The notes under the pieces are model-generated. The model was not told the origin of the DNA. It saw nothing but the letters and a program-made list of their open reading frames with translations, and did no database searches. This document shows, piece by piece, positions 39,913-53,615 of a stretch of DNA of 64,000 bases. The translations under genes were made by a program, and so were the position numbers. The DNA lies in the NCBI RefSeq assembly GCF_055900595.2, contig NZ_CM148325.1; one strand, 5' to 3'. Position 1 is the first letter of the stretch, and each line of letters opens with the position of its first letter.

Positions 39913-40512
39913 GTGTCTGCACCGGCTGAACAAAATTCAACAGGGTTTGAAAAGGAACATTTCGTGCAAATAACCGAAGCATTAATTTCAGAGCCGGGAG
40001 ACATCCGGCGTTTTATTCAGCAGGCGGTGGACCACTGGCCGCATTTGCTGGCATTTTACTTCACACTCCATTCGGCAGAAGGAAATATCAACGGGCAACA
40101 GATTCATGCATTCTGTACTTCCTTTTACCGACAGGTGCACGAACGTATTACTGAGCGTAATCACACGGCCAGTCCATCATCGCCGGTGGTGTTACGCTGG
40201 TTGCGGGAACAACATGGAGGAGCAACAATTCGATGCCTGTTGCTGCTCAGCCAGACGAGTATTTGTCACCCGCGAGCCAGTGTCACAGTTGATGAACAAT
40301 GTTCGCAAATGGTGGATTTATTGCAACAGACATGGCGGGTGATAAGTGCTGACGGACAATGCCGGGTGGAAAGGTGTTTTCAGGCTGCCCGGGGTGATAC
40401 ATCCGGCCAGTATATTGCGTTAAAAACAGTTGCATTGTCTCTGGGGTTACCGGTTGTGACCGGTATTACCCATCGCCCGGTACAGCGCTGTACATTGATT
40501 ACAGCTCAGTGA
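39913..40512 (+). CDS. Hypothetical protein (199 aa)
   Basis: Track ORF downstream of alpA; family not recognised. Confidence 0.45.
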   Translation: MSAPAEQNSTGFEKEHFVQITEALISEPGDIRRFIQQAVDHWPHLLAFYFTLHSAEGNINGQQIHAFCTSFYRQVHERITERNHTASPSSPVVLRWLREQHGGATIRCLLLLSQTSICHPRASVTVDEQCSQMVDLLQQTWRVISADGQCRVERCFQAARGDTSGQYIALKTVALSLGLPVVTGITHRPVQRCTLITAQ

Positions 40513-40529
40513 ACAGCGCTGTTGTGCAG

Positions 40530-40832
40530 TCAACGAGGTTTTCTGTCTTTTCGTCGGTCATTCAGCATCATTAAACGGGTCTCTGCCTCTTTCTGTTCCT
40601 GTGGTGTCACTTCCCCGCACGGCTGACCGTTCAGGTTGTAACGGGCGCCACCTGCTATTAACGCACGGTAATAGCGCGGAGACTGCACATAAGACGCCAC
40701 TGCTGCATGTAATGTACCAGCGCCAAACGCCAGTTCTCGGATGGCGATATCCTGTATCAGGTCGTCAGGTATCCCCACTTTAAGTGGTTTTGTTTTTTTC
40801 CCGGTTGAATGACTCAGGCCAGAGTTCCACAA
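40530..40832 (-). CDS. Hypothetical protein (100 aa), possibly part of a frameshifted gene with ORF 40847..41041
   Basis: Two adjacent minus-strand ORFs in different frames. Confidence 0.35.
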   Translation of the reverse strand: MWNSGLSHSTGKKTKPLKVGIPDDLIQDIAIRELAFGAGTLHAAVASYVQSPRYYRALIAGGARYNLNGQPCGEVTPQEQKEAETRLMMLNDRRKDRKPR

Positions 40833-41633
40833 GACGAATAATGCGCTTACGGTTTTTGCTCTGGCGTTTTGTCATGTCGCCACGGTGTTTTATCAGCAGG
40901 TTTCTGTTTATCGTTCAACTGTGGTATCTGGTCACCGGCCTTCATTTTGTATGCTGTGTCCGTTTTATTCTGCAGCGGCGTTGCCGGTGATTTACTGAAA
41001 ATACCCTGCGGTTTACGGTTAATGGTCAGAGTTACCATCAATTTTGTTACCTCGCGCTGTCAATGGAAGTAGTACCTCATCCGATATCTGAAAATGTTTT
41101 CCGGTGGATGTTACAGCGAATTTCATGTAAGACATGTTGTTGTCGGTATTGTTCAGTACTGTGCGTTGTGAGCGTATTCGTTATCAGACAGAGGGGCAGG
41201 GAACAAACGTCAGAGGTTAAGGATATCCGGGAACAAATGGCGTAAACGGACATCTCAGTGCCTGAGAAACAGTACAGGTCAGGCCATCATGGCCTGCAAA
41301 CAGAGCCCTGGCGACCCCGTGGCCGAAAACGAAACAATAACCCGCGCGCAGTGCGAGGAATCCGGATGTGAAGCAATCAGCAGGTAATATTAATGGCAGG
41401 ACCAGCAGGTTCTTTAAACAAACGAACATGCTGTAATTGATATTTTGCTTATTGTATTTTCTTTTTAGTTATTAAATTAATTTATTTACGAAAAATTTTC
41501 TGCAGATACAGGATGGGAATTCAGGGTGTCATCACGCCTTATGATGACACCCTTCCCCTGGTTGTGGAAAACCGAAGGATATATCAGGTTCAGCAACAAA
41601 ATCAGTGAGCTGAAAGATACCAGTCCCCCAGCT

Positions 41634-42653
41634 TCAGCAGCTTTCACGTAAACATAAACAGGGCTCAATGAATATCTGATTGCTCCAGTTACCTTCTTTA
41701 ATTCGTTCCAGCAAAACATTTCCTGCTTCCAGACCAATTTTCCTGTGAGGAACGGCCATTGTTGTTAATGATGGTTGGCAAACTTTGCTGACGTCACTGT
41801 CACCAAATCCTACTACGGCGAGCTCGTCTGGAACTTTGATCCGTCTTCGTTGACATTCATAGAGAACACCGCAGGCTAACTCATCTGACACACATACCAG
41901 GGCATCCAGTTCCGGCCATGCGAGCAAAAATTCCGGTAGTTGTGATGCTCCGGTGGAAAAAACAGGTGGCAGAGCAGCGTTAATAACACGGTTGGGAGAC
42001 ATATGATGGCGTAACATAGCTTTATACCATCCCTGTAAATGCTGCTGAAAGATCCACTGTTCCTGGTTAGCGCATAGCAAACCGATATTCTGATAACCAC
42101 GTTGTACCAGCATATCCGTCAGCTCGAACATTGCTGCAACATTATCAATACCAATGTTGATATCTATCGGATCAGTACGAATGGCACCGATTTCTATAAC
42201 AGGAATCGAGGCATTTTTGAGCAAGTGACGCACGGTACTATTATGCTCAACACTAAGCAAAATTGCTGCAGCGATATTAGAAGCCAGCAGGGTTTCCAGC
42301 AGTTTTTCTTCTTGTTCCAGACGATGGCGTGACTCAGCCAGGATTATTTGATACCCCGCTGGTTGTAGCACATGTTGCAGCCCGGCAAACATTTCCGTGC
42401 ATCCCGCTTCAGCCAGGTTTGGCACGACCATTGCGATCGTGTGTGAAGATGCCGATGCCAGTGCGCTTGCAGTGAGGTTGGGCATATACCCTAATTCATT
42501 AACTGCGGCTTCAATCTTCTCCCTCAATTTATCTGAAACTTGTTCGGGAGTGCGTAACGCTCTGGATACAGTCATTGTGCCAACTCCCGCGAGTTGCGCG
42601 ACATCAGCAATAGTGACTTTACCTGTACTACGACGTTTTCGGGTTATTGCCAT
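41634..42653 (-). CDS. LacI-family transcriptional repressor (339 aa)
   Basis: N-terminal HTH (VTIADVAQLAGVGTMTVSRALR) plus periplasmic-binding-protein-like sugar-binding domain; divergent from the PTS operon. Confidence 0.85.
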   Translation of the reverse strand: MAITRKRRSTGKVTIADVAQLAGVGTMTVSRALRTPEQVSDKLREKIEAAVNELGYMPNLTASALASASSHTIAMVVPNLAEAGCTEMFAGLQHVLQPAGYQIILAESRHRLEQEEKLLETLLASNIAAAILLSVEHNSTVRHLLKNASIPVIEIGAIRTDPIDINIGIDNVAAMFELTDMLVQRGYQNIGLLCANQEQWIFQQHLQGWYKAMLRHHMSPNRVINAALPPVFSTGASQLPEFLLAWPELDALVCVSDELACGVLYECQRRRIKVPDELAVVGFGDSDVSKVCQPSLTTMAVPHRKIGLEAGNVLLERIKEGNWSNQIFIEPCLCLRESC

Positions 42654-42904
42654 ACAAAATCCTGCTCAGCGACTACATATGGAGATCTTTTATTACTTAT
42701 CATCAACGGCTTCCTGCACTGCCAGTAGCAGAGTATACCTCTTAATATCTGCCATAAGTCTGGATTTAATCAGTGAAATCTATTTTGATAGCGCTATCAC
42801 AAATTCGAACAATACCTCCTGATAGCGCTATCTTTGTGATATTGATCGCAGATATACCGTCGTTACTTGAATACATTCTGGTCATATAAATAAGAAATTA
42901 GGGG

Positions 42905-43354
42905 GTGGGAGTGCTTAATATCTGGCTTTCTGATTCAACAATCGCATTACGAAAGAATGCCGCAACCTGGCAGCAGGCATTAGATATCTGTGCCAGACCG
43001 TTACTGGATGCAGAGATAATTACGACGGATTATCTCAGTGCGATAAAGACACAACATGAAAAACTGGGGCCTTATTATGTCCTGGCACCCGGGCTGGCCA
43101 TGCCGCATGCCCGACCAGAAGAAGGGGCAAAAGGATTAGGTTTATCATTATTAAAACTTGAAGAAGGTGTCAGTTTTCATACAGAGGAATTTGATCCTGT
43201 AGATGTTATCATTTTACTTGCCGCACCAGACAAACACAGTCATATCGAAATGATATCTGCACTGGCTGAGTTATTCTCCAGCGAAAAAGATTTACATGAA
43301 TTGCATCAGGCTCGCAATGTGGAGGAAATAAAAAAGATAATTTCACGGTTCTGA
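42905..43354 (+). CDS. PTS EIIA component (ascorbate/L-Asc family, PTS_EIIA_2)
   Basis: ...GPYYVLAPGLAMPHARPEEG... resembles UlaC/SgaA-type EIIA; first gene of a five-gene operon. Confidence 0.8.
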   Translation: MGVLNIWLSDSTIALRKNAATWQQALDICARPLLDAEIITTDYLSAIKTQHEKLGPYYVLAPGLAMPHARPEEGAKGLGLSLLKLEEGVSFHTEEFDPVDVIILLAAPDKHSHIEMISALAELFSSEKDLHELHQARNVEEIKKIISRF

Positions 43355-43432
43355 TTACATTATAAATTCAGTCTTTTCACAACATTGCGCCGTTGCGTGA
43401 TGGGACTTCTTCAACTTAAAATGGTGAATATA

Positions 43433-43705
43433 ATGAAAATTATGGCTATTTGTGGCTCAGGGCTTGGTAGTAGTTTTATGGTCGAAATGAATATTAAAAA
43501 AGTTCTGAAAAAAATGGATATAGAGGCGGAAGTGGAACATTCCGATCTCTCATCAGCAACGCCAGGGGCTGCCGATTTATTTGTGATGGCCAAAGATATT
43601 GCTGCCAGTGCCAGCGTACCGGAAAGTCAGTTGGTGGTTATCAACAACATCATTGATATTAATGAACTCGAAACGCAACTGCGTAACTGGTTAGCAAAAC
43701 AATAA
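43433..43705 (+). CDS. PTS EIIB component (UlaB/SgaB-like)
   Basis: MKIMAICGSGLGSS with the active-site Cys motif; start chosen inside track ORF 43385..43705. Confidence 0.8.
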   Translation: MKIMAICGSGLGSSFMVEMNIKKVLKKMDIEAEVEHSDLSSATPGAADLFVMAKDIAASASVPESQLVVINNIIDINELETQLRNWLAKQ

Positions 43706-43721
43706 CCTTAATTGAAGCGAG

Positions 43722-45116
43722 GTGGATATGTTTATCCTTGAAACGCTGAATTTTGTTGTTGATATACTTAAAGTGCCCGCGATACTGGTCGGCTTGATTG
43801 CCTTAATTGGTCTGGTTGCCCAGAAAAAATCTTTTTCAGATGTTGTTAAAGGTACAATTAAAACTATTCTCGGCTTTATTGTACTGGGCGGTGGTGCCAC
43901 TGTTTTGGTTGGTTCGTTAAATCCTCTTGGGAGTATGTTTGAACATGCCTTTAATATTCAGGGCATCATTCCGAATAATGAGGCTATTGTTTCTATTGCG
44001 CTGGAAAAATATGGCGCATCGACGGCCCTTATTATGGCATTTGGTATGGTGGCGAATATTATTGTTGCCCGCTTTACCCGCCTTAAATATATCTTCCTGA
44101 CCGGACACCACACATTTTACATGGCCTGCATGATTGGTGTGATTCTGACAGTGGCTGGTTTTGAAGGTATATCACTGGTCTTTACCGGTTCTCTTATTCT
44201 GGGACTTGTGATGGCATTTTTCCCGGCATTAGCACAACGCTATATGAAGCGTATTACGGGGAATGATGACATTGCTTTTGGTCACTTTGGCACTCTGGGA
44301 TATGTACTTTCTGGCTGGATTGGCAGCGTGTGCGGTAAAGGTTCCCGCTCCACCGAAGAGATGAATTTGCCCAAAAATCTGAGCTTCCTGCGCGACAGTT
44401 CCATCTCTATTTCTCTTACGATGATGGTGATTTATCTGATCATGGCGATCAGTGCTGGTCGTGAGTTCGTTGAAAGCCAGTTCAGTGGTGGTCAAAACTA
44501 CCTTGTCTACGCCATCATAATGGCCATCACCTTCGCTGCTGGTGTATTTATTATTCTGCAAGGCGTGCGTTTAATCCTTGCTGAAATAGTTCCGGCATTT
44601 ACCGGGTTTTCAGAAAAGCTGGTGCCGAATGCCCGTCCGGCCCTCGATTGCCCGGTTGTGTATCCGTATGCGCCAAACGCAGTGTTAGTTGGTTTCTTGT
44701 TTAGCTTTTTTGGCGGTCTGGTAGGGCTATTTTTGTTGGGACAGATGAAACTGGTGTTGATTCTTCCGGGTGTCGTTCCTCACTTTTTTACCGGGGCGGC
44801 TGCTGGCGTATTTGGTAACGCTACGGGGGGACGTCGTGGCGCAATGATTGGTGCTTTTGCGAATGGCTTATTGATTACCTTCCTGCCAGTACTGTTATTG
44901 CCGGTTCTTGGGGCGATAGGCTTTGCTAATACGACCTTTTCCGATGCAGATTTTGGTGCTGTCGGCATCGTCCTCGGAAACCTGGCACGTTATCTCTCAC
45001 CTTTTGCCATCACCGGACTTGTAGTAGCGCTATTTGTGCTGCTGGTTGCCTGGAACATTTTCGCCAGTAACAAAATCGCTGCCAAAGCGCAGAAGAAGAG
45101 TGGAGCCAAATCATGA
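43722..45116 (+). CDS. PTS EIIC permease (UlaA/SgaT-like), 464 aa
   Basis: Large polytopic membrane protein directly after EIIB. Confidence 0.85.
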   Translation: MDMFILETLNFVVDILKVPAILVGLIALIGLVAQKKSFSDVVKGTIKTILGFIVLGGGATVLVGSLNPLGSMFEHAFNIQGIIPNNEAIVSIALEKYGASTALIMAFGMVANIIVARFTRLKYIFLTGHHTFYMACMIGVILTVAGFEGISLVFTGSLILGLVMAFFPALAQRYMKRITGNDDIAFGHFGTLGYVLSGWIGSVCGKGSRSTEEMNLPKNLSFLRDSSISISLTMMVIYLIMAISAGREFVESQFSGGQNYLVYAIIMAITFAAGVFIILQGVRLILAEIVPAFTGFSEKLVPNARPALDCPVVYPYAPNAVLVGFLFSFFGGLVGLFLLGQMKLVLILPGVVPHFFTGAAAGVFGNATGGRRGAMIGAFANGLLITFLPVLLLPVLGAIGFANTTFSDADFGAVGIVLGNLARYLSPFAITGLVVALFVLLVAWNIFASNKIAAKAQKKSGAKS

Positions 45117-45943
45117 ATGTTAAAGAATTGACTCAATTTGCACGGGATATACGTATCCAGACGCTTAAATCATTAACTCATCTCGGCTTCGGTCATTATG
45201 GTGGCAGCATGTCGGTTGTGGAAACGCTGGCAGTGCTTTATGGCGCTGTAATGAAAATTGATCCTGCTGCTCCCGACTGGCCTGAGCGTGACTATTTTAT
45301 CCTGTCCAAAGGACATGCCGGACCTGCTCTCTACAGTACTCTGGCGCTGAAAGGCTACTTTCCACTGGAAGAATTAAGCACCTTAAATCAGAACGGAACC
45401 CGCTTACCAAGTCATCCGGATCGGCTAAAAACGTGTGGTGTTGATAGCACCACAGGATCGCTGGGGCAGGGGATATCCATTGCCGGAGGGATGGCGCTGT
45501 CGCATAAACTGGCGGGGCGCAAGAATCGGGTTTTTTGTATTGTCGGCGATGGCGAACTTAATGAAGGCCAATGTTGGGAAGCTTTCCAGTTTATCGCGCA
45601 TCATCGTTTGAATAACCTCACTGTGTTTGTGGACTGGAACAAACAGCAGCTTGATGGTCAACTGGATGAAATTATTAATCCATTTGATTTGGAAGGAAAA
45701 TTCCGGGCTTTCGGTTTTGATGTCGTGACAGTGAAGGGCGATGATATTGAGGGCTTGTTGAATGTAGTTAAACCTGTCCTGCCAGCTGAGGCCAGACCGA
45801 GAGTGGTCATTCTCGATAGCATTAAAGGGCAGGGGGTGCCGTGTCTCGAGCAACTCAGTAATTCTCATCACTTACGCCTCACAGAAGAGATGAAGGGGAC
45901 GCTAAACGAAACAATTCGCCAACTGGAGGCTATGCATGATTAA
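45113..45943 (+). CDS. Transketolase, N-terminal subunit (split tkt)
   Basis: Thiamine-diphosphate-binding signature (...GHYGGSMS..., ...GDGELNEGQCWEA...); overlaps neighbours by 4 and 8 bp. Confidence 0.85.
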   Translation: MNVKELTQFARDIRIQTLKSLTHLGFGHYGGSMSVVETLAVLYGAVMKIDPAAPDWPERDYFILSKGHAGPALYSTLALKGYFPLEELSTLNQNGTRLPSHPDRLKTCGVDSTTGSLGQGISIAGGMALSHKLAGRKNRVFCIVGDGELNEGQCWEAFQFIAHHRLNNLTVFVDWNKQQLDGQLDEIINPFDLEGKFRAFGFDVVTVKGDDIEGLLNVVKPVLPAEARPRVVILDSIKGQGVPCLEQLSNSHHLRLTEEMKGTLNETIRQLEAMHD

Positions 45944-46889
45944 TCTCGCACCGGCAGGACAAAAAGACAGCATTGAAATGCGCAAAGTTTATGCAGATTT
46001 TATCGCGCAACAGAGTAAAAACGTCAGTTCTGTCATTGCTCTTGAGGCTGATTTAATGAGTTCCATGGCAATGGACAGCGTGGCGCAGGATTATCCAGAT
46101 CACGTCATTAATTGCGGCATTATGGAAGCCAATGTTATCGGCACAGCTGCAGGGCTGGCCTTAACCGGGCGCAAGCCATTCGTGCATACCTTTACCGCAT
46201 TTGCCAGTCGTCGCTGTTTTGATCAACTCTTTATGTCGCTTGATTACCAGGGCGCTAACGTCAAAGTTATAGCTTCTGATGCGGGTGTTGCTGCTTGCCA
46301 CAATGGCGGAACACATATGTCATTTGAAGATATGGGAATTGTGCGCGGGCTGGCGCATTCGGTGGTGATGGAGATGACAGATGCCGTAATGTTCAGCGAT
46401 ATCTTGCGTCAACTCGTTGCACTGGAAGGATTTTATTGGATTCGTACCATTCGGAAGCAAGCAGCGAGTATTTACGCACCAGGTACAACCTTTACAATTG
46501 GCAAAGGGCAGGTATTACGTGAAGGTACGGATGTCACCTTAATTGCTAATGGCATTATGGTGGTGGAAGCCCTGGAGGCCGCACGTCAACTTGAGCTGGC
46601 TGGGGTAAGTGTAGCGGTGATTGATATGTTTACGCTCAAACCCGTTGATCGGATGTTAATTAAAAATTATGCCGAAAAAACAGGACGGATCGTAACATGT
46701 GAAAACCATAGTATTCATAATGGATTAGGTTCAGCAGTTGCTGAAGTGCTTGTAGAAACTTGTCCTGTGCCCATGCGTCGGGTGGGGGTTAAAGAGCGGT
46801 ATGGCCAGGTTGGAACTCAGGACTTTTTACAGAGAGAGTACGGGTTAACCGCGCAAGATATTGTGGCGGCAGCCAGAGAGCTATTGTAA
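45936..46889 (+). CDS. Transketolase, C-terminal subunit (split tkt)
   Basis: Pyrimidine-binding and C-terminal transketolase domains; last gene of the operon. Confidence 0.85.
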   Translation: MINLAPAGQKDSIEMRKVYADFIAQQSKNVSSVIALEADLMSSMAMDSVAQDYPDHVINCGIMEANVIGTAAGLALTGRKPFVHTFTAFASRRCFDQLFMSLDYQGANVKVIASDAGVAACHNGGTHMSFEDMGIVRGLAHSVVMEMTDAVMFSDILRQLVALEGFYWIRTIRKQAASIYAPGTTFTIGKGQVLREGTDVTLIANGIMVVEALEAARQLELAGVSVAVIDMFTLKPVDRMLIKNYAEKTGRIVTCENHSIHNGLGSAVAEVLVETCPVPMRRVGVKERYGQVGTQDFLQREYGLTAQDIVAAARELL

Positions 46890-47151
46890 TTCATGGAGTT
46901 TGTTTACCATTCTGTTTTTCTTAAAAGTGAGTGTCTGTGCGGTCACTAAACTCGGTAATAAAGCAGTTCATTGCAGGATAAGAAGCGTTTGGTTGTGTCG
47001 TTTTACCGTAAGAACCGACCGCCGTATGTAGCCATTAAGCCAGTATTGGTAACGTAGGTGCCCACCTTTTCAAACTGGTGGACGCCTGTTATGGAGCAAA
47101 AACATTATCCGCAGAACCCCGCAGATCATTTTCAAATGAGTTAAACTTCAA

Positions 47152-47337
47152 ATGGTTAAACTGGTTTTGCAACCAGGAGCCTCTGTTGCCCGTATTGCCC
47201 GGGAACACGATATCAATGATAACCTCCTGTTCAAATGGCTCAGACTCTGGCAGAACGTAAGGTACAGGGAGATGAAAAAGGCAATAGCAGAACTGAGTGA
47301 CAGTGAAACCATTCTGGCGTACAGGGTTGGATGGTGA
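47152..47337 (+). pseudogene. IS66-family TnpA-like fragment
   Basis: VKLVLQPGASVARIAREHDINDNLLFKWLR parallels the TnpA at 51132 (VEQSLQPGACVAQIARENGINDNLLFNWR); short and isolated. Confidence 0.45.
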
Positions 47338-47343
47338 AACTGA

Positions 47344-47377
47344 TAAAAAAACCCCTCTGAAAATTCTGTCAGAGGGG
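47344..47377 (-). terminator. Orphan Rho-independent terminator (minus strand)
   Basis: cccctctga / tcagagggg stem with 8-nt loop followed by seven T on the minus strand; no intact gene upstream. Confidence 0.6.
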
Positions 47378-48033
47378 TGTAGTCAATAAGGGTGTCATAT
47401 TCAACATGAAGATGTCTTCTGGGAATGTTTACATAGCAAATGCTTTCACTCCGGTAATTAATTTCCGTGATTAACTGCTTTCGATCAATAAAGGAATTGC
47501 AAAAGTGTGATCTTGCTCACGACATTGTGGATGATAATATGCCTGATGTCTGAATCCGGAAACAGTGCTCTGGCGGGTTTCATGTGAAGTTGACGGATAA
47601 AAAATCCTCACGACCAGACAGACGTGCGGTTTACGAAATTCGTAACAAGAGGCTTTTCTACGGATCACGTGGTGCGTGCCACGTGAAATTTTTGTAGCGC
47701 AAAATGTGCAATGTGTAAATACAAGGAAGGAAAAAGTTAAATTGGTGGAAGTCCATGCCTGCCACATGTACGTCTGCATTCCTCGTTTTGAACAGAATTC
47801 TCACCAGACATCGTGAATTTCTCATTCAATCTGCAAAATGGCATCTGAATCGATCGCAGTTTGGCATTCGAATCGATCATGATTTGGCATCCATCTCCGA
47901 TCACAGTTTGGCATCACAATCGATCACGATTTGGCATGCTTCCGATCATTGATTGGCATCCTGCCAGTCACTCCGGGAATTCACTCTTTTCACCACAGTC
48001 TCCATTGCCGTGTTTAAACCAGTGGAGACGTCA

Positions 48034-49599
48034 ATGTCCAGAAAGCGAAAATCCAGGAGCACTATGGAAACCTGTTTTAAGATCCTTCAGCTCAAGTTCG
48101 ACAAGAAGCTGACTAACCGTTGTATCGGACTGACGTTACACATCAGCGCCTCAACCGTTTTTGAGGTTATTGCCCGCTTCAAAGCCTCTTCTCTGCCATG
48201 GCCATTACCTGCTGATATATCCCATGACACGCTGGAGAAACTCATTTTTCCGCCCAAAGACACCTTTGCATCAGAGCTTGTAATGCCTGACATGTTGTAC
48301 TTCGATACGGAAATGAGAAAACCAGGTGTGACGCGGCAACTGCTGTGGATGGAATACAAGGCACAGGCAGGTGACAAAGCGATGGGATACTCGCACTTCT
48401 GCCTTTGCTACCGGGAGTGGAAAAAAACGCGACGTCTCTCCATGCGCCAGGAGCATCGTGCCGGCGAAAAGCTTTTTATCGACTTCTGTGGTCCTACTGT
48501 TCCTGTTATTAATCCGGACACCGGTGAGATACGCCGCGTGGCAATCTTCGTGGCCGTAATGGGGGCGTCCAAGTATACCTACGTTGAAGCGTGCGAAGGT
48601 CAGGACATGATGTCATGGTTAAATGCCCACAGCCGTTGCCTGACCTTCCTGGGCGGCGTACCGAAGCTGCTCATCCCCGATAACCTCAGAAGCGCAGTGA
48701 AAAAGACCGATCGCTATGAGCCTGTCATCAACGACAGTTATCAGGCACTGGCTGAGCACTATGGCACGGTTATCATCCCGGCCCGACCACGCAAACCTAA
48801 AGATAAACCAAAAGCAGAAAACGGCGTCCTCATCGTCGAACGATGGCTTCTTGCCCGCATCCGTAATGAAACCTTCCACACGCTCAGGGCGCTGAATGCG
48901 CGCCTTTGGGAGTTACTGACAGACATGAATAACCGGCCAATGAAGGGGTACGGCAATCAAACCCGTGCAGAACGCTTCCGCATACTGGATGCGCCAGCTC
49001 TCTCTCCGCTGCCTCTGACACCTTATGAATACACGGAATACAAAGCCGTGAAGGTTGGCCCTGACTACCACGTTGAATATGCCCGTCACTGGTACTCCGT
49101 TCCACACGAACTGGTCGGTCAGCGTCTGTCACTGAAAGCGGGGCAGTCGGTGGTACAGCTCTGGCACAAGGGGCAGTGTGTGGCACAACATCCGCGCAGC
49201 ACACATGAATATAAACACACAACCAATCCGCTTCACATGCCAGAGCGCCACCGGCAGCACGGGACATGGACACCGGAACGCCTTATCGGGCAGGGAAAAC
49301 GTACGGGCCCGTCCACAGGCCGGGTGGTTGAATCCATGCTGAAGGCAAAACCCCATCCGGAACTGGCTTATCGTGCAGTTCTGGGGCTGCTGGCACTTCA
49401 GAAAAAATACGGCCCGGAACGGCTGGAAAAGGCCTGTTACGTTGCCCTGCACTATAATGCCCCGGACAGACGCTTTATCGACAATCTGCTGCGTCACCAT
49501 CGGGAGAACCTGGAGCTTCCGTTATCCCGCCAGGGCGAACAACATCCGGCATATGCTTCAGAGCATGAAAACCTGTGTGGTCCGGGCTACTACCACTGA
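48034..49599 (+). CDS. istA: IS21-family transposase IstA
   Basis: Track ORF trimmed to MSRKRKS with GGAG RBS; HTH plus DDE-type integrase core. Confidence 0.85.
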   Translation: MSRKRKSRSTMETCFKILQLKFDKKLTNRCIGLTLHISASTVFEVIARFKASSLPWPLPADISHDTLEKLIFPPKDTFASELVMPDMLYFDTEMRKPGVTRQLLWMEYKAQAGDKAMGYSHFCLCYREWKKTRRLSMRQEHRAGEKLFIDFCGPTVPVINPDTGEIRRVAIFVAVMGASKYTYVEACEGQDMMSWLNAHSRCLTFLGGVPKLLIPDNLRSAVKKTDRYEPVINDSYQALAEHYGTVIIPARPRKPKDKPKAENGVLIVERWLLARIRNETFHTLRALNARLWELLTDMNNRPMKGYGNQTRAERFRILDAPALSPLPLTPYEYTEYKAVKVGPDYHVEYARHWYSVPHELVGQRLSLKAGQSVVQLWHKGQCVAQHPRSTHEYKHTTNPLHMPERHRQHGTWTPERLIGQGKRTGPSTGRVVESMLKAKPHPELAYRAVLGLLALQKKYGPERLEKACYVALHYNAPDRRFIDNLLRHHRENLELPLSRQGEQHPAYASEHENLCGPGYYH

Positions 49600-49615
49600 C
49601 AGAAGGAACAACAGT

Positions 49616-50371
49616 ATGAGTGATAACCTGTTAAACAAACTGACCCAACTGAAACTCCCGGCGATGGCCGGGAGCCTGATACGGCAGCGGGAAACGCCTC
49701 AGACCTACGACGAGCTGTCGTTCGAGGAAAGGCTGACGCTGCTGGTTGATGACGAGCTTCTGAGCAGGGAAAACATCCGTGTGGCACGGTTGAGAAAAAA
49801 TGCCGGCCTGAAATACCAGGCAACACCGGAAGGGCTGCGCTATCCGGCCTCAAGAGGTCTGCGGGCTGAACAGATGAGGGAACTGCTGAACGGCCACTAC
49901 ATAACCCACAGGAAAAACCTGCTGATAACCGGTCCGACAGGATGTGGCAAGAGCTGGATAGCCAATGCGCTGGGCGAACAGGCATGTCGACAGAAACACA
50001 GCGTCCGGTACTGTAGAACCGGGCGATTACTGGAACAACTGGCTCAGGGACGTGTTGATGGCAGCTGGCTGAAGTATCTGAAACAGTTGCAAAAAATACA
50101 GGTTCTAATCCTGGACGATCTGGGGCTGGAGTCGTTAAGTAACGCCCAGTGTAATGACCTTCTGGAGCTCATAGAGGATCGTTACGGACAAAGCAGCACG
50201 ATAGTGGTAAGCCAGTTCCCGGTAGATAAATGGCATGGTCTGATGGAGAAGCCAACAACAGCAGATGCCATCCCGGACAGACTGGTACATAACTCACACA
50301 GACTAGTCCTTCAGGGAGAGTCCCTGAGGAAAAATCCCTCGATAGTGGAAAGCATCGAAAAAACGAGTTAA
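49616..50371 (+). CDS. istB: IS21-family helper ATPase IstB
   Basis: Walker A GPTGCGKSW; start MSDNLLNKL inside track ORF 49373..50371. Confidence 0.9.
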   Translation: MSDNLLNKLTQLKLPAMAGSLIRQRETPQTYDELSFEERLTLLVDDELLSRENIRVARLRKNAGLKYQATPEGLRYPASRGLRAEQMRELLNGHYITHRKNLLITGPTGCGKSWIANALGEQACRQKHSVRYCRTGRLLEQLAQGRVDGSWLKYLKQLQKIQVLILDDLGLESLSNAQCNDLLELIEDRYGQSSTIVVSQFPVDKWHGLMEKPTTADAIPDRLVHNSHRLVLQGESLRKNPSIVESIEKTS

Positions 50372-50879
50372 AAAGCGGTAGAAAAAGTTAAGTTCCCGGT
50401 TGATCGAATGGATGCGAATAGCTGATCGGACTTCGATGCCAATCCGTGATCGAATAGAGCGGAATACGCACTTTAACAACACAAAACATCATTTTTTGAA
50501 ACAATATTCACGGAACTTCTTATCCCTTCACTTCCCGTTTTATATGGGCAGCACCGTCTGTCTTTCCTATTGATGCGATTCGTATAATTTATTTTACCCA
50601 TGAGAAACTCACATTTAAATTTATGAGATGTCATATATGAAGAATAAGGAAATGCCCGGATAGGTGGATTGTGGAAAAGTTACTGGCAATAACTTAACTA
50701 CAATAACCGGCACGTTTTCAACGCTGGCGCAGGCAAGTGCGGACAAAACGGGATTCTTTATCACGGGTAAAACTTGTGCATCTGTGACGGTATTAATCCT
50801 GTTCATCAGTAAGCGCCTCATCTGAACCGTCTGGTCTGTTTCCTCCGGCTCCACAAAAATAATGTCCATCATTTTTAAT

Positions 50880-51085
50880 GGACACTATCGTATGGAATAC
50901 CGGACCTGGATCACCGAAGCTTTACGTCTTCACTTTGAAGAACATTTACCACGGATTGTGGCCGGACGTCGCCTGGGCGTACCAAAATCAACAGTTTGTG
51001 GTATGTTCGTGCGCTTCCGCAAAGCTGGCCTTTCATGGCCTCTGCCCGCAGGTATGTCGGAGCGGGAACTTGATGCCCGTCTTTA
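50880..51085 (+). pseudogene. N-terminal fragment of a second IS21-family IstA, truncated by the IS66 insertion
   Basis: N-terminal 90 aa of track ORF 50862..51539 (HTH then LSWPLPAGMSERELDARLYG) parallels the IstA N-terminus at 48034 (LPWPLPADISHDTLEKLIFP) before switching into IS66 TnpA. Confidence 0.5.
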
Positions 51086-51131
51086 CGGGAGTGCCTCCAC
51101 AGTACCTGTCGTACTTACTGAAAACACCGTT

Positions 51132-51539
51132 ATGTCCGAAGTCCCGGTGGTAAAAAAACGTCCCCGGCGGCCTAATTTTCCTTATGAGTTTAAAATCGCC
51201 TTAGTGGAGCAGTCACTGCAGCCCGGAGCCTGTGTGGCGCAGATCGCCCGTGAAAACGGAATCAACGATAACCTGCTCTTCAACTGGCGCCATCAATACC
51301 GGAAAGGTGGCCTGCTGCCTTCCGGAAAAAATATGCCTGCACTGCTTCCCGTGACGTTAACGCCGGAGCCGGATAATAAAATCCCGGCTCCGGCACAGGA
51401 ACCAGAGCAGATAAATACACCGTCCGACAGTCTGTGCTGTGAGCTGGTTCTGCCGGCCGGAACTCTCAGGCTGAAAGGTGAACTGACACCGGCCTTATTA
51501 CAGACACTTATCCGCGAAATGAAAGTGAGCAGCCACTGA
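51132..51539 (+). CDS. tnpA: IS66 TnpA (Orf1)
   Basis: MSEVPVVKKRPRRPNFPYEFKIALVEQSLQPGACVAQIARENGINDNLLFNWR... Confidence 0.85.
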   Translation: MSEVPVVKKRPRRPNFPYEFKIALVEQSLQPGACVAQIARENGINDNLLFNWRHQYRKGGLLPSGKNMPALLPVTLTPEPDNKIPAPAQEPEQINTPSDSLCCELVLPAGTLRLKGELTPALLQTLIREMKVSSH

Positions 51540-51886
51540 TGATATCTCTCCCTGCAGGTTCGCGTATCTGGCTGGTTGCCGGTATCACCGACATGCGAAA
51601 TGGCTTTAACGGCCTGGCCTCAAAAGTTCAGAACGTCCTGAAGGATGACCCGTTCTCCGGACACCTGTTCATCTTCCGCGGACGCCGGGGTGACCAGATA
51701 AAAGTGTTGTGGGCTGACAGTGACGGACTGTGCCTCTTCACCAAACGCCTGGAGCGGGGCCGCTTCGTCTGGCCGGTCACCCGTGACGGCAAGGTGCACC
51801 TTACTCCGGCCCAGTTATCCATGCTTCTTGAGGGCATCGACTGGAAACATCCAAAACGAACGGAACGCGCTGGAATCCGCATATAA
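51539..51886 (+). CDS. tnpB: IS66 TnpB (Orf2)
   Basis: 115 aa MISLPAGSRIWLVAGITDMRNGFNGLASKVQ...; start overlaps the tnpA stop (ATGA). Confidence 0.9.
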   Translation: MISLPAGSRIWLVAGITDMRNGFNGLASKVQNVLKDDPFSGHLFIFRGRRGDQIKVLWADSDGLCLFTKRLERGRFVWPVTRDGKVHLTPAQLSMLLEGIDWKHPKRTERAGIRI

Positions 51887-51905
51887 CCCGTTGTAAAGTG
51901 AGGAT

Positions 51906-53477
51906 ATGGACACCTCACTTGCTCATGAGAACGCCCGCCTGCGGGCACTGTTGCAGGCGCAACAGGACACCATCCGCCAGATGGCCGAATACAATTGCCT
52001 GCTCTCACAGCGGGTGGCGGCTTATGCTTCTGAAATCAACCGGCTGAAGGCGCTGGTTGCAAAACTGCAGCGCATGCAGTTCGGTAAAAGCTCAGAAAAA
52101 CTTCGCGCAAAAACCGAACGACAGATACAGGAAGCACAGGAGCGAATCAGCGCACTTCAGGAAGAAATGGCGGAAACACTGGGTGAGCAATATGACCCGG
52201 CACTGCCATCTTCCCTGCGCCAGTCTTCAGCCCGTAAACCGTTACCGGCTGCACTTCCCCGTGAATCCCGGGTTATCCGGCCGGAAGAGGAATGCTGCCC
52301 GGCTTGTGGTGGCGAACTCAGTTCTCTGGGATGTGATGTGTCAGAGCAACTGGAGCTTATCAGCAGCGCCTTTAAGGTTATCGAAACACAACGTCCGAAA
52401 CTGGCCTGTTGCCGGTGCGACCATATCGTGCAGGCACCAGTACCTTCAAAACCCATTGCACGCAGTTATGCCGGAGCGGGGCTTCTGGCTCATATCGTCA
52501 CCGGGAAGTATGCAGACCATCTGCCGTTATACCGCCAGTCAGAAATATACCGTCGTCAGGGCGTGGAACTGAGCCGCGCCACGCTGGGGCGCTGGACCAG
52601 TGCCGTTGCTGAACTGCTGGAGCCGCTGTATGACGTGCTGCGCCAGTATGTGCTGATGCCCGGTAAAGTCCATGCGGATGATATCCCCGTTCCGGTCCAG
52701 GAGCCGGGCAGTGGTAAAACAAGAACTGCCCGGCTGTGGGTTTACGTCCGTGATGACCGTAACGCCGGTTCACAGATGCCCCCGGCGGTCTGGTTCGCGT
52801 ACAGCCCGGACCGGAAAGGTATCCATCCACAGAATCACCTGGCCGGTTACAGCGGTGTGCTTCAGGCCGATGCTTACGGTGGTTACCGGGCGTTATACGA
52901 ATCCGGCAGAATAACGGAAGCCGCGTGTATGGCCCATGCCCGGAGAAAAATCCACGATGTGCATGCAAGAGCGCCTACCGATATCACCACGGAAGCCCTG
53001 CAGCGTATCGGTGAACTGTATGCAATCGAGGCAGAGGTCCGGGGATGTTCAGCAGAACAGCGTCTGGCGGCAAGAAAAGCCAGAGCTGTGCCACTGATGC
53101 AGTCACTGTACGACTGGATACAGACTCAGATGAAAACACTGTCGCGTCACTCAGATACGGCAAAAGCGTTCGCATACCTGCTGAAACAGTGGGATGCACT
53201 GAACGTGTACTGCAGTAATGGCTGGGTGGAAATCGACAACAACATCGCAGAGAACGCCTTACGGGGAGTGGCCGTAGGCCGGAAAAACTGGATGTTCGCG
53301 GGTTCCGACAGCGGTGGTGAACATGCGGCGGTGTTGTACTCGCTGATCGGCACATGCCGTCTGAACAATGTGGAGCCAGAAAAGTGGCTGCGTTACGTCA
53401 TTGAACATATCCAGGACTGGTCGGCAAACCGGGTACGCGATCTGTTGCCCTGGAAAGTTGATCTGAGCTCTCAGTAA
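51906..53477 (+). CDS. tnpC: IS66 TnpC transposase (523 aa)
   Basis: Leucine-zipper-like N-terminus, CxxC zinc motif and DDE core typical of IS66 TnpC. Confidence 0.9.
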
Positions 53478-53615
53478 ATATCAATACGGTTCTGACGAGC
53501 CGCTTACTATTCAGCAATGATGCTATTTTTTTTGAAGTAGATCACATTATCTGTGTTTCCCTTCCAGATTTATTTAGATAGTCTGATTTCTCGGTTTTAA
53601 TAAAAGGGGGAAGTA

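What the first reader, a model, noticed from the sequence alone, without database searches (positions are those of the whole stretch)
41634..46889. Accessory carbohydrate module: LacI-type repressor, ascorbate-family PTS IIA-IIB-IIC and a split transketolase
Five tightly overlapping genes form an operon divergent from a LacI-family regulator, located inside mobile DNA between phage-like genes and an IS21 element. A PTS coupled to its own transketolase suggests uptake of a sugar or sugar-acid funnelled into the pentose phosphate pathway; the substrate is unknown.
Basis: partly seen in the sequence, partly recalled or inferred. Interest (0 to 1): 0.35.

Follow-up and report, generated by a model that had tools for sequence, protein, structure and literature searches.

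The report
Island-borne copy of pagR–PTS–tktC locus
This is a real, intact six-gene sugar-uptake unit (a repressor, a three-part phosphotransferase transporter and a two-piece transketolase) that most enterobacteria carry in their core chromosome (Salmonella calls it pagR/tktC). Typical E. coli lack it, and about 2% of strains have it on a pathogenicity island, so it is ordinary and largely known, although its sugar is still unidentified.

Summary
Six intact genes lie at 41634-46889: a LacI-type regulator divergent from PTS IIA-IIB-IIC and a split transketolase.

- **Not a ula duplicate.** Identity to UlaA/B/C is 29/27/40%. There are no UlaG/D/E/F genes. Six of the 11 ascorbate-contacting UlaA residues are replaced, and the replacements do not vary among orthologues.
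- **Orthologue of Salmonella STM2340-2345.** This is the locus encoding TktC, a reported functional transketolase, and PagR, a LacI-type regulator. The same six genes occur in the same order, at the same site next to pta-ackA, in about 80 sampled Enterobacterales species, including Escherichia albertii.
- **E. coli distribution.** No complete E. coli genome has the module at that native site. 132 of 5,426 carry an almost identical copy on a PAI I5155-type island, where one paper has already mentioned it.
- **Constraint.** All six genes are under strong purifying selection (dN/dS 0.02-0.10).
- **Regulatory region.** Two operators (TGATAGCGCTATC) and a CRP-like site are conserved across genera.

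The likely function is inducible, catabolite-controlled uptake of a non-ascorbate carbohydrate that is fed into the pentose phosphate pathway. The substrate remains unknown. Interest is low.

The parts
41634..42653 (-). LacI/GalR-family transcriptional regulator (339 aa), orthologue of Salmonella STM2345 (PagR)
   Evidence: Pfam LacI HTH plus Peripla_BP_1/3. The best NCBIfam matches are GntR/IdnR-type regulators, all below their cut-offs. 88% aa identity to the Salmonella orthologue. dN/dS is 0.04 against E. albertii.
41608..41633 (-). Terminator-like hairpin with a T-run immediately after the regulator's stop codon
   Evidence: Consensus scan: 10-bp stem with 4 GC pairs. The pattern match is the only evidence.
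42784..42801 (.). Operator O1, TTTGATAGCGCTATCACA (CG-centred palindrome)
   Evidence: The 12-mer GATAGCGCTATC occurs only twice in the 64 kb window against 0.14 expected. It is present in 75 of 75 orthologous loci while the flanks diverge.
42819..42836 (.). Operator O2, CTGATAGCGCTATCTTTG, 34 bp from O1
   Evidence: Second copy of the palindrome. Present in 74 of 75 loci with a fixed spacing of 34-36 bp.
42835..42850 (.). CRP-like site TGTGATATTGATCGCA, abutting O2
   Evidence: Matches TGTGA-N6-TCACA at 9 of 10 half-site positions. A site with at least 8 of 10 matches lies at the same offset from O2 in 77 of 79 loci, with a variable spacer. Function is inferred.
42872..42877 (+). Candidate -10 hexamer (TACATT) within a conserved block; predicted start near 42884 places the CRP site at about -41.5
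   Evidence: Conserved block tTG.aTAaAGTtTg in the alignment of 82 regulatory regions. This is an inference. The generic promoter scan was not above chance.
42911..43354 (+). PTS enzyme IIA (147 aa; alternative GTG start at 42905), phospho-acceptor His66
   Evidence: PF00359 at 118.6 bits. 40% identity to UlaC, with the APGLAMPH(A/G)RPEEG motif conserved.
43433..43705 (+). PTS enzyme IIB (90 aa), phospho-acceptor Cys7
   Evidence: PF02302. 27% identity to UlaB, with the CG-G-GSS motif conserved.
43728..45116 (+). PTS enzyme IIC permease of the L-ascorbate (UlaA/SgaT) family (462 aa; alternative start 43722)
   Evidence: PF03611 at 510 bits and NF009549 at 989 bits, above its cut-off of 890. 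29% identity to UlaA. Hinge and phosphotransfer residues are conserved, but 6 of 11 ascorbate contacts are replaced. 92-97% identity to Salmonella and E. albertii orthologues.
45113..45943 (+). Split transketolase, N-terminal (ThDP diphosphate-binding) subunit, 276 aa; orthologue of one subunit of Salmonella TktC
   Evidence: PF00456. The best PDB match is the N-terminal chain of the split transketolase 6YAK, E = 3e-64. Equivalents of His26/66/100/261, Asp155 and Asn185 are conserved.
45936..46889 (+). Split transketolase, C-terminal (pyrimidine-binding plus C-terminal domain) subunit, 317 aa
   Evidence: PF02779 plus PF02780. The best PDB match is 6YAJ, E = 1e-70. R16, S43, E64, H127 and R170 are conserved, while the TktA His461 equivalent is Asp115 and the Asp469 equivalent is Asn123.

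Best explanation
This is a horizontally relocated copy of an old enterobacterial catabolic locus, the orthologue of Salmonella STM2340-STM2345 (pagR, PTS IIA/IIB/IIC, tktC).

**Proposed mechanism**
1. Without inducer, the LacI-type repressor binds two CG-centred palindromic operators. These lie 34 bp apart, just upstream of and abutting a CRP site, and binding keeps the five-gene operon off.
2. With inducer present and glucose absent, cAMP-CRP activates transcription.
3. Phosphoryl groups pass from PEP through EI and HPr to IIA (His66), then to IIB (Cys7).
4. The IIC permease is a UlaA-type elevator transporter whose binding pocket differs from that of the ascorbate permease. It takes up and phosphorylates a carbohydrate that is not L-ascorbate.
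5. The co-transcribed two-subunit ThDP transketolase connects the product, or its pentose phosphate derivative, to the non-oxidative pentose phosphate pathway.

**Shown here**
- gene content and orthology
- conserved synteny
- conservation of the operators and the CRP-like site
- intact phosphorelay and catalytic residues
- purifying selection
- divergence of the permease pocket from UlaA

**Taken from the literature, for the Salmonella orthologue only**
- TktC is a functional transketolase.
- STM2345/PagR is a regulator.

**Inferred**
- that the regulator represses
- the identity of the inducer and of the substrate
- whether the transketolase acts directly on the PTS product
For: **Families.**

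**Orthology to the Salmonella locus.**
- Collinear over 5,246 bp at 75.8% nucleotide identity; proteins are 73-94% identical.
- The same six genes, in the same order, between a yfcD-like NUDIX gene and pta-ackA in about 80 species-representative Enterobacterales genomes.
- Homology to the native Escherichia loci spans exactly 41630-46890.

**E. coli distribution.**
- 132 of 5,426 genomes carry a copy at 99.9-100% identity, all chromosomal.
- None has the module at the native site.

**Constraint.** dN/dS is 0.02-0.10 for all six genes.

**Regulation.**
- O1 is present in 75 of 75 loci and O2 in 74 of 75, at 34-36 bp spacing.
- A CRP-like site is present at a fixed offset in 77 of 79 loci.

**PTS.**
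- The phospho-acceptor residues are conserved.
- In UlaA numbering, hinge Gly58 and Gly286, Arg288, His135, His194 and Asp314 are conserved.
- Also in UlaA numbering, T86N, Y87E, I136H, Q139Y, Q195F and M410T are replaced, with no variation across 13 orthologues. The ascorbate contacts come from PMC6048161 and the mapping.

**Transketolase.** Cofactor and catalytic residues are conserved.

**Literature.**
- TktC is described as Salmonella's third transketolase (Shaw 2018, as cited in PMC12651746 and PMC8360588).
- STM2345 is PagR (PMC12413039, PMC12351708).
- An analogous co-regulated ascorbate-family PTS plus split transketolase exists in S. pneumoniae (PMC8540371).
- The E. coli copy is noted in PAI I5155 (PMC4232414).
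Against: - No substrate, inducer or expression data exist for the E. coli copy, and I found none for the PTS in any species.
- The module has no isomerase, dehydrogenase or lactonase. The PTS product must therefore already be a pentose phosphate pathway intermediate, or be processed by enzymes encoded elsewhere, or be an unusual direct transketolase substrate.
- In Salmonella the regulator is reported as an activator of SPI-2 genes and tktC as RpoS-dependent. Neither fits a simple substrate-specific repressor model.
- Gilliamella keeps the regulator and PTS without the transketolase, so the coupling is not obligatory.
- The predicted promoter is weak, and the generic promoter scan was at chance level.
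- The primary Salmonella papers (Shaw 2018, Jiang 2020) could not be read here.
Confidence: 0.7

Rival explanations
1. It is a redundant second L-ascorbate PTS. It imports ascorbate, which the core UlaG/D/E/F enzymes convert to xylulose-5-P, and the extra transketolase only adds capacity.
For: - The IIC belongs to the UlaA family, and NCBIfam names it 'PTS ascorbate transporter subunit IIC'.
- His135, His194, Asp314, Phe362 and Arg288 are conserved.
- Xylulose-5-P, the end product of the ula pathway, is a transketolase substrate (established biochemistry).
Against: - Identity to UlaA/B/C is only 29/27/40%.
- Six of 11 ascorbate-contacting residues are replaced, including the H-bonding Thr86, Tyr87, Gln139 and Gln195. 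PMC6048161 reports that mutating these active-site residues to Ala or Ser cripples or abolishes binding. The replacements do not vary across genera.
- A Glu now sits in the pocket, which is unfavourable for an anionic ligand (inference).
- The regulator is LacI-type, not the DeoR-type UlaR.
- Salmonella and others keep the two systems as distinct loci.
Confidence: 0.08
2. The transketolase is essentially a back-up or stress isozyme of the general pentose phosphate pathway, and the regulator has a wider, virulence-related regulon as reported for PagR. The PTS would be incidental or act as a sensor, and the module would matter on the island for fitness or virulence regulation rather than for using a specific sugar.
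For: - In Salmonella, TktC contributes to general transketolase capacity and tktC is reported to be RpoS-regulated (PMC12651746, citing Shaw 2018).
- STM2345/PagR is reported to be induced by low Pi and low Mg and to upregulate SPI-2 (PMC12413039, PMC12351708).
- The Asp/Asn transketolase type also occurs in housekeeping-like contexts without a PTS.
- In E. coli the module sits among virulence genes: ireA, fec, pgt and adhesins.
Against: - The six genes stay together in the same order, with conserved operators and a CRP-like site, across about 80 species. That is typical of a dedicated catabolic operon.
- The permease is the most conserved gene (dN/dS 0.02-0.03), so it is not incidental.
- The same PTS-transketolase pairing recurs in pneumococcus, co-regulated at about 215-fold (PMC8540371).
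- The operator occurs nowhere else in the 64 kb window.
- E. coli has no SPI-2.
Confidence: 0.15
3. It is a decaying passenger: DNA carried along on a mosaic island with no selected function in E. coli.
For: - About 234 genomes retain only the last 179 bp of the transketolase gene. In the one such genome examined (L006) the relic lies next to an IS1.
- The island is riddled with IS elements.
- Only 2.4% of genomes carry the module.
Against: - All six ORFs are intact and 99.9-100% identical in 132 genomes from varied hosts.
- dN/dS is 0.02-0.10 against native loci.
- The regulatory sites and catalytic residues are intact.
Confidence: 0.05

Closest known systems
Salmonella enterica STM2340-STM2345 locus (tktC split transketolase, SgaT/UlaA-type PTS IIC/IIB/IIA, LacI-type regulator PagR)
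   Same: The same six genes in the same order and orientation. The loci are collinear over 5.2 kb at 76% nucleotide identity, with proteins 73-94% identical. The two operators and the CRP-like site are the same.
   Different: In Salmonella and most Enterobacterales the locus is chromosomal, between yfcD and yfcC/pta. In E. coli it sits on a PAI I5155-type island flanked by IS elements, and the native site is empty. E. coli also lacks SPI-2, the reported PagR target.
E. coli UlaABC-UlaR-UlaGDEF L-ascorbate system
   Same: The same PTS family (EIIC-GAT fold, IIB and IIA types). The elevator hinge glycines, Arg288 and the phospho-acceptor residues are conserved.
   Different: Identity is 27-40%. 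The gene order is IIA-IIB-IIC rather than IIC-IIB-IIA. The regulator is LacI-type rather than DeoR-type. There is no lactonase, decarboxylase or epimerase. Six of 11 ascorbate contacts are replaced.
Streptococcus pneumoniae SP_2127-SP_2131 (split transketolase, ascorbate-family IIC and IIB, BglG-type regulator)
   Same: The same functional pairing of an ascorbate-family PTS with a two-subunit transketolase, co-regulated as a unit (PMC8540371).
   Different: It has a different regulator type (a PRD/BglG antiterminator or activator rather than a LacI repressor), is from a different phylum, and I did not compare its sequences here.
Split transketolase of Carboxydothermus hydrogenoformans (PDB 6YAK/6YAJ)
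   Same: It is the best structural relative of both subunits (E = 3e-64 and 1e-70) and has the same two-chain architecture.
   Different: 6YAJ carries the canonical His...Asp pair where this enzyme has Asp115...Asn123.
tkt1 genomic island of APEC O1 / B2 ExPEC
   Same: Both are ExPEC-associated islands that carry a transketolase-like gene next to a PTS component (PMC3349570).
   Different: tkt1 is a single full-length transketolase homologue (68% identical to Vibrio TktA) beside a glucose-type IIBC, between metE and ysgA. It has no split enzyme, no UlaA-type PTS and no LacI regulator. The loci are unrelated.

Membership tests
L-ascorbate (UlaA/SgaT) family PTS, TC 4.A.7 | IIC permease with the EIIC-GAT fold, plus separate IIB and IIA of the matching types | tested here: met
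   PF03611 at 510 bits, PF02302 and PF00359. The only PDB matches are UlaA 4RP8/5ZOV.
L-ascorbate (UlaA/SgaT) family PTS, TC 4.A.7 | Phosphorelay residues (IIA His, IIB Cys) and elevator hinge/phosphotransfer residues (Gly58, Gly286, Arg288) | tested here: met
   IIA His66 and IIB Cys7. G56, G279 and R281.
L-ascorbate-specific orthologue (UlaABC proper) | Conservation of the 11 ascorbate-contacting residues of ecUlaA | tested here: not met
   Four are identical and one is conservative. Six are replaced (T86N, Y87E, I136H, Q139Y, Q195F, M410T), and the replacements do not vary among orthologues (contact residues from PMC6048161).
L-ascorbate-specific orthologue (UlaABC proper) | Linked UlaG lactonase and UlaD/E/F, with the DeoR-type UlaR regulator | tested here: not met
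   None of these lies in or beside the module.
Salmonella STM2340-2345 (pagR-PTS-tktC) orthologous locus | Same gene set, order and orientation, with high protein identity | tested here: met
   Collinear over 5,246 bp. LacI 88%, IIA 73%, IIB 94%, IIC 94%, TktN 89%, TktC 86%.
Salmonella STM2340-2345 (pagR-PTS-tktC) orthologous locus | Shared cis-regulatory sites | tested here: met
   O1 and O2. The CRP-like site is in the Salmonella sequence and at a fixed offset in 77 of 79 loci.
Salmonella STM2340-2345 (pagR-PTS-tktC) orthologous locus | Chromosomal position between yfcD and yfcC/pta-ackA | tested here: not met
   In E. coli the module lies in a PAI among IS elements. The native site is empty in all 5,426 genomes.
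Salmonella STM2340-2345 (pagR-PTS-tktC) orthologous locus | Transketolase activity of the two-subunit enzyme; regulator responsive to low Pi and low Mg | not testable with these tools
   Reported for Salmonella only (Shaw 2018 and Jiang 2020, read only through the citing papers PMC12651746, PMC12413039 and PMC12351708).
ThDP-dependent transketolase (split type) | N-terminal PP domain on one chain and Pyr plus C-terminal domains on the other; ThDP/Mg2+ ligands; catalytic His residues and the cofactor-activating Glu | tested here: met
   Pfam. 6YAK/6YAJ are the best matches. Equivalents of His26/66/100/261/473, Asp155, Asn185 and Glu411 are conserved.
ThDP-dependent transketolase (split type) | Canonical substrate-contact pair His461/Asp469 (E. 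coli TktA numbering) | tested here: not met
   These positions are Asp115 and Asn123 here. The signature is shared by 54 of 150 family representatives, against 52 with the canonical pair. R16, S43 and R170, the other phosphate ligands, are kept.
LacI/GalR repressor family | N-terminal LacI HTH plus a type-I periplasmic-binding-protein effector domain; CG-centred palindromic operator near its own operon | tested here: met
   Pfam. Two palindromes TGATAGCGCTATC(A) are conserved in 74-75 of 75 loci.
LacI/GalR repressor family | Known effector (GntR/IdnR equivalog) | tested here: not met
   The best NCBIfam scores are 270 (cut-off 400) for Pseudomonas-type GntR and 225 (cut-off 500) for IdnR. The protein is related to the sugar-acid-responsive subgroup but is not an equivalog.
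APEC/ExPEC tkt1 island | Full-length tkt1 with a glucose-type IIBC between metE and ysgA | tested here: not met
   The architecture and context described in PMC3349570 differ entirely from this module.

The most novel reading that the evidence does not exclude
The permease imports a still-unidentified, non-ascorbate compound. The Asp115/Asn123-type split transketolase acts directly on its phosphorylated form. Together they would make a minimal two-step pathway (phosphorylate on entry, then transfer a ketol unit) that needs no other dedicated enzyme. Such a pathway would be conserved across Enterobacterales and paralleled in streptococci, and E. coli would have regained it on a virulence island. 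The paired His-to-Asp and Asp-to-Asn swap would then mark a transketolase subfamily with altered substrate recognition.
Probability: 0.22. Interest if true: 0.5.

Novelty: already known. Interest (0 to 1): 0.22.

Why it matters
**Practical value**
- The E. coli 'accessory' module should be annotated as the pagR-PTS-tktC locus, not as an ascorbate transporter and not as the ExPEC tkt1 island.
- What is known about TktC and PagR in Salmonella can now be transferred to the E. coli copy.
- The predicted operators and CRP site make regulator experiments straightforward.

**Evolution**
The case shows a locus that is core in related genera, absent from the native site in all sampled E. coli, and present on a pathogenicity island in about 2% of strains, many from poultry and extraintestinal infections.

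**Open question**
The unresolved point is which compound this widely conserved PTS imports. It is a modest, long-standing annotation gap rather than a surprise.

Tried and rejected
- **Primary papers.** Shaw et al. 2018 (DOI and PMC6065166) is not held, and Jiang et al. 2020 is not in the library. I used citing papers instead.
- **Literature on the locus tags.** A search for STM2340-2345 gave only three incidental papers. One of them revealed the PagR name.
- **Misaligned protein alignments.** The three-sequence MAFFT alignment and the concatenated alignment misplaced the Pyr-domain residues. They wrongly gave Arg358 to Ser, His461 to Ser and Arg520 to R158. HMMER alignments to 6YAJ and human TKT corrected the register.
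- **Asp115/Asn123 as a marker of an exotic substrate.** I rejected this as diagnostic. The signature is in 54 of 150 family representatives, and one Asp/Asn representative examined lies beside ribosomal-protein genes with no PTS. Salmonella TktC is also reported to be active.
- **Contexts of the closest non-enterobacterial relatives.** The contigs were too short or uninformative. L010 is followed by a Tex-like gene, L014 is only 1.4 kb, and L011 is a different dehydrogenase/aldolase cluster.
- **Gilliamella.** It has no enzyme in place of the transketolase, only an unrelated GNAT gene.
- **Generic promoter and terminator scans.** Both were at chance level: 13 promoter-like sites against 10.5 expected. 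The TTGATA-17-AACAAT site inside O1 is therefore not relied on.
- **RNA features.** Rfam gave no match in 40500-47600, and there is no tRNA in the window.
- **Recent transfer from Salmonella.** Rejected. Nucleotide identity is only 76%, and the nearest relatives are E. albertii and a cryptic Escherichia at 85-86%.
- **Identity with the tkt1 island.** Rejected.

Full report
**1. Observation**

- a 339-aa ORF on the minus strand (41634-42653)
- five plus-strand ORFs, starting after an intergenic gap of about 250 bp and ending at 46889

Pfam assigns them as follows, all far above the curated cut-offs:

| Gene | Pfam assignment |
|---|---|
| Regulator | LacI HTH plus periplasmic-binding-protein fold |
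| IIA | PTS_EIIA_2 |
| IIB | PTS_IIB |
| IIC | EIIC-GAT (510 bits) |
| TktN | Transketolase_N |
| TktC | Transket_pyr plus Transketolase_C |

NCBIfam agrees. It places the permease in an 'ascorbate IIC' equivalog (989 bits, cut-off 890). The regulator scores below every named equivalog, closest to the GntR/IdnR sugar-acid group.

RefSeq annotates the same genes on identical DNA, with starts at 42911 (IIA) and 43728 (IIC).

Only IIC/TktN (4 bp) and TktN/TktC (8 bp) overlap. IIA-IIB are 78 bp apart and IIB-IIC 22 bp apart.

The flanks are as follows:
- Upstream are integrative-element genes (YagK/YfjJ-like, AlpA, ProQ/FinO-like).
- Downstream are an IS3 remnant, IS21, IS66, a SPATE autotransporter and a YadA-like adhesin.

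**2. It is not a duplicate of the core ula system**

I compared the module with K-12 UlaA/B/C (locus L002).
- Identities are 29%, 27% and 40%.
- The gene order is reversed.
- The regulator is LacI-type rather than DeoR-type.
- There is no UlaG/D/E/F.

PMC6048161 lists the ascorbate-contacting residues of E. coli UlaA. I mapped them with HMMER and MAFFT.

| UlaA residue class | Residues | State in this permease |
|---|---|---|
| Hinge and phosphotransfer | Gly58, Gly286, Arg288 | conserved |
| Ascorbate contacts, kept | His135, His194, Asp314, Phe362 | conserved |
| Ascorbate contact, conservative | Ile358 | Val |
| Ascorbate contacts, replaced | Thr86, Tyr87, Ile136, Gln139, Gln195, Met410 | Asn, Glu, His, Tyr, Phe, Thr |

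Five of the six replacements are identical in all 13 orthologues examined, from E. coli to Gilliamella. Position 410 is Thr in 11 and Ala in 2.

The transport machinery is therefore UlaA-like, but the binding pocket is different and conserved.

**3. What it is**

A protein search with the permease found a 92%-identical Salmonella protein that represents a 3,426-member cluster. Its genomic context is the same six-gene unit between a NUDIX gene (yfcD-like) and a DcuC-like gene, pta and ackA. That is the STM2337-STM2345 neighbourhood.

The E. coli and Salmonella units are collinear over 5,246 bp at 75.8% nucleotide identity.

| Protein | Identity to Salmonella |
|---|---|
| LacI regulator | 88% |
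| IIA | 73% |
| IIB | 94% |
| IIC | 94% |
| TktN | 89% |
| TktC | 86% |

Serratia fonticola and another enterobacterium show the same unit at the same site.

A scan of one genome per species found relatives in 244 genomes. The best 80 are Enterobacterales: Escherichia albertii, a cryptic Escherichia, Citrobacter, Klebsiella, Raoultella, Enterobacter, Kosakonia, Cedecea, Serratia, Rahnella, Hafnia, Ewingella, Erwinia, Mixta and Gilliamella. One further record is labelled Chryseobacterium and looks mislabelled. In nearly all of them the six genes are in the same order at the same site.

The literature adds three points:
- STM2340/2341 is TktC, Salmonella's third transketolase (Shaw 2018, as cited in PMC12651746 and PMC8360588).
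- STM2345 is PagR, reported to be induced by low phosphate and low magnesium and to upregulate SPI-2 (PMC12413039, PMC12351708, PMC7873081).
- The E. coli copy has been noted in one sentence as part of the 94-kb PAI I5155 of APEC IMT5155 (PMC4232414).

It is unrelated to the tkt1 island of APEC O1 (PMC3349570).

**4. The situation in E. coli**

- The module is present at 99.9-100% identity in 132 of 5,426 complete genomes. All copies are chromosomal, from poultry, human, pig, dog and water isolates.
- It lies in PAI I5155-type islands with ireA, fec, pgtABCP and a YadA-like adhesin.
- About 234 further genomes keep only the last 179 bp of the final gene. In the one example examined this relic lies beside an IS1, a deletion scar.
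- No genome carries the module at the native yfcD-yfcC site. None of the 5,426 covers at least 80% of the E. albertii locus.
- Homology between the island copy and the native Escherichia loci runs exactly from 41630 to 46890. That is the six genes and nothing else.
- The nearest species-level relatives are E. albertii (85.9% nt) and a cryptic Escherichia (85.1%). Other genera are at about 77%.
- dN/dS is 0.02-0.10 for all six genes. dS is higher for the transketolase genes (about 1.1-1.2) than for the regulator and PTS genes (0.5-0.9), which hints at a mosaic history.

So the module is a maintained, functional unit that reached an E. coli island from an Escherichia-like lineage. It is not a recent import from Salmonella.

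**5. Regulation (inferred from conservation)**

The intergenic region holds two copies of GATAGCGCTATC, at 42787 and 42821. These are the only two in the 64 kb window, against 0.14 expected.
- O1 (TTTGATAGCGCTATCACA) is present in 75 of 75 orthologous loci.
- O2 is present in 74 of 75, always 34-36 bp away, while the surrounding DNA diverges.

Abutting O2 is TGTGATATTGATCGCA (42835-42850). It matches the CRP consensus half-sites at 9 of 10 positions. A site with at least 8 of 10 matches sits at the same offset in 77 of 79 loci, with a freely varying spacer.

A conserved block about 20 nt further on contains a -10-like hexamer (TACATT, 42872-42877). A start near 42884 would put the CRP site at about -41.5, which is class-II geometry.

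The generic promoter scan was not above chance, so this promoter assignment is an inference.

The picture is that of a catabolite-controlled operon under a specific repressor.

**6. The enzymes**

The PTS phospho-acceptors are intact: IIA His66 and IIB Cys7.

Both transketolase subunits match the solved split transketolase of C. hydrogenoformans best (6YAK and 6YAJ, E = 3e-64 and 1e-70). The conserved positions, in TktA numbering, are:
- cofactor and catalytic residues: His26, His66, His100, His261, His473, Asp155, Asn185, Glu411
- phosphate ligands: Arg358 (R16 here), Ser385 (S43) and Arg520 (R170)

Two substrate contacts differ: His461 is Asp115 and Asp469 is Asn123.

Among 150 family representatives, 54 carry Asp/Asn, including all of the closest ones, and 52 carry His/Asp. 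I do not treat the swap as proof of a new substrate, for two reasons:
- One Asp/Asn representative examined lies beside ribosomal-protein genes with no PTS.
- Salmonella TktC is reported to be active.

**7. Coupling of the PTS and the transketolase**

- The pairing is conserved across Enterobacterales.
- It recurs in S. pneumoniae, where SP_2127-2130 rise together by about 215-fold (PMC8540371).
- Gilliamella keeps the regulator and PTS without the transketolase.

The coupling is therefore frequent and probably functional, but it is not obligatory.

**8. Verdict**

It is, however, an already annotated and partly characterised kind of locus.

New from this analysis:
- the exact orthology to the Salmonella locus and the empty native site in E. 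coli
- the operator and CRP architecture
- the permease pocket differences that argue against ascorbate
- the transketolase subfamily signature

The substrate remains unknown and cannot be derived with these tools.

Noticed in passing
window 46711-46889; L006 6001-6179: About 234 complete E. coli genomes retain only the last 179 bp of the transketolase C-subunit gene (98-99% identity). In the one example examined (L006) it lies directly beside an IS1 and near sul2, aph(3'')-Ib, aph(6)-Id and tet(A). This looks like a deletion scar of the module in related islands.
   Followed up: partly
window 50862-57731: An IS66 element and a 1,371-aa SPATE-type serine-protease autotransporter (Peptidase_S6 plus autotransporter beta-domain) lie downstream. 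This segment is 99.9% identical to part of a 156-kb poultry E. coli plasmid. No complete E. coli genome reproduces the window's arrangement over 47000-64000.
   Followed up: partly
window 60064-61498: A YadA-like trimeric autotransporter adhesin fragment is followed by a sigma-factor-like HTH gene. The same pair follows the module directly in IMT5155 and 14EC020. In the window, IS21, IS66 and the SPATE gene are inserted between the module and this pair.
   Followed up: partly
L007 12234-18457 (E. coli 14EC020 island): In some E. coli the same island also carries pgtABCP (phosphoglycerate transport) and fecABCDE. Like the PTS-transketolase module, pgt is native to Salmonella and absent from K-12. 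The island therefore collects metabolic loci that are core in sister genera.
   Followed up: no
proteins P0002, P0003 (Salmonella, 737 aa): Some Salmonella records have the IIC permease fused in frame to the transketolase N-subunit, probably through loss of the stop codon at the 4-bp gene overlap.
   Followed up: no
L095 6908-11095 (Gilliamella sp.): The bee-gut symbiont Gilliamella has the regulator, operator O1 and IIA/IIB/IIC (IIC 79% identical) but no transketolase. An unrelated GNAT acetyltransferase gene follows the permease.
   Followed up: yes
L051 (record titled Chryseobacterium sp. 18061): A contig labelled Chryseobacterium carries a typical enterobacterial yfcE-yfcD-module-pta-ackA locus with 90-95% protein identities. 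This is most likely contamination or a mislabelled assembly.
   Followed up: no
window 45113-46889 compared with 41634-45116: Synonymous divergence from E. albertii is about twice as high for the two transketolase genes (dS 1.1-1.2) as for the regulator and PTS genes (dS 0.55-0.73). This suggests a recombinant, mosaic origin for the island copy.
   Followed up: partly
L004/L005 7682-8154 (Serratia fonticola): The regulator-IIA intergenic region is expanded to 473 bp in S. fonticola and contains a called 112-aa ORF with no Pfam match. The two operators are retained downstream of it.
   Followed up: no
TktC subunit residues 115-128 (window about 46278-46319): Split transketolase C-subunits fall into two equally large classes. 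One has S/T-D-x-G...N-G-G-T-H-M and the other has the canonical T-H-x-G...D-G-A-S/T-H-Q. The His-to-Asp and Asp-to-Asn changes are perfectly coupled within these two classes (54 and 52 of the 150 representatives), and I found no description of this in the papers read.
   Followed up: partly
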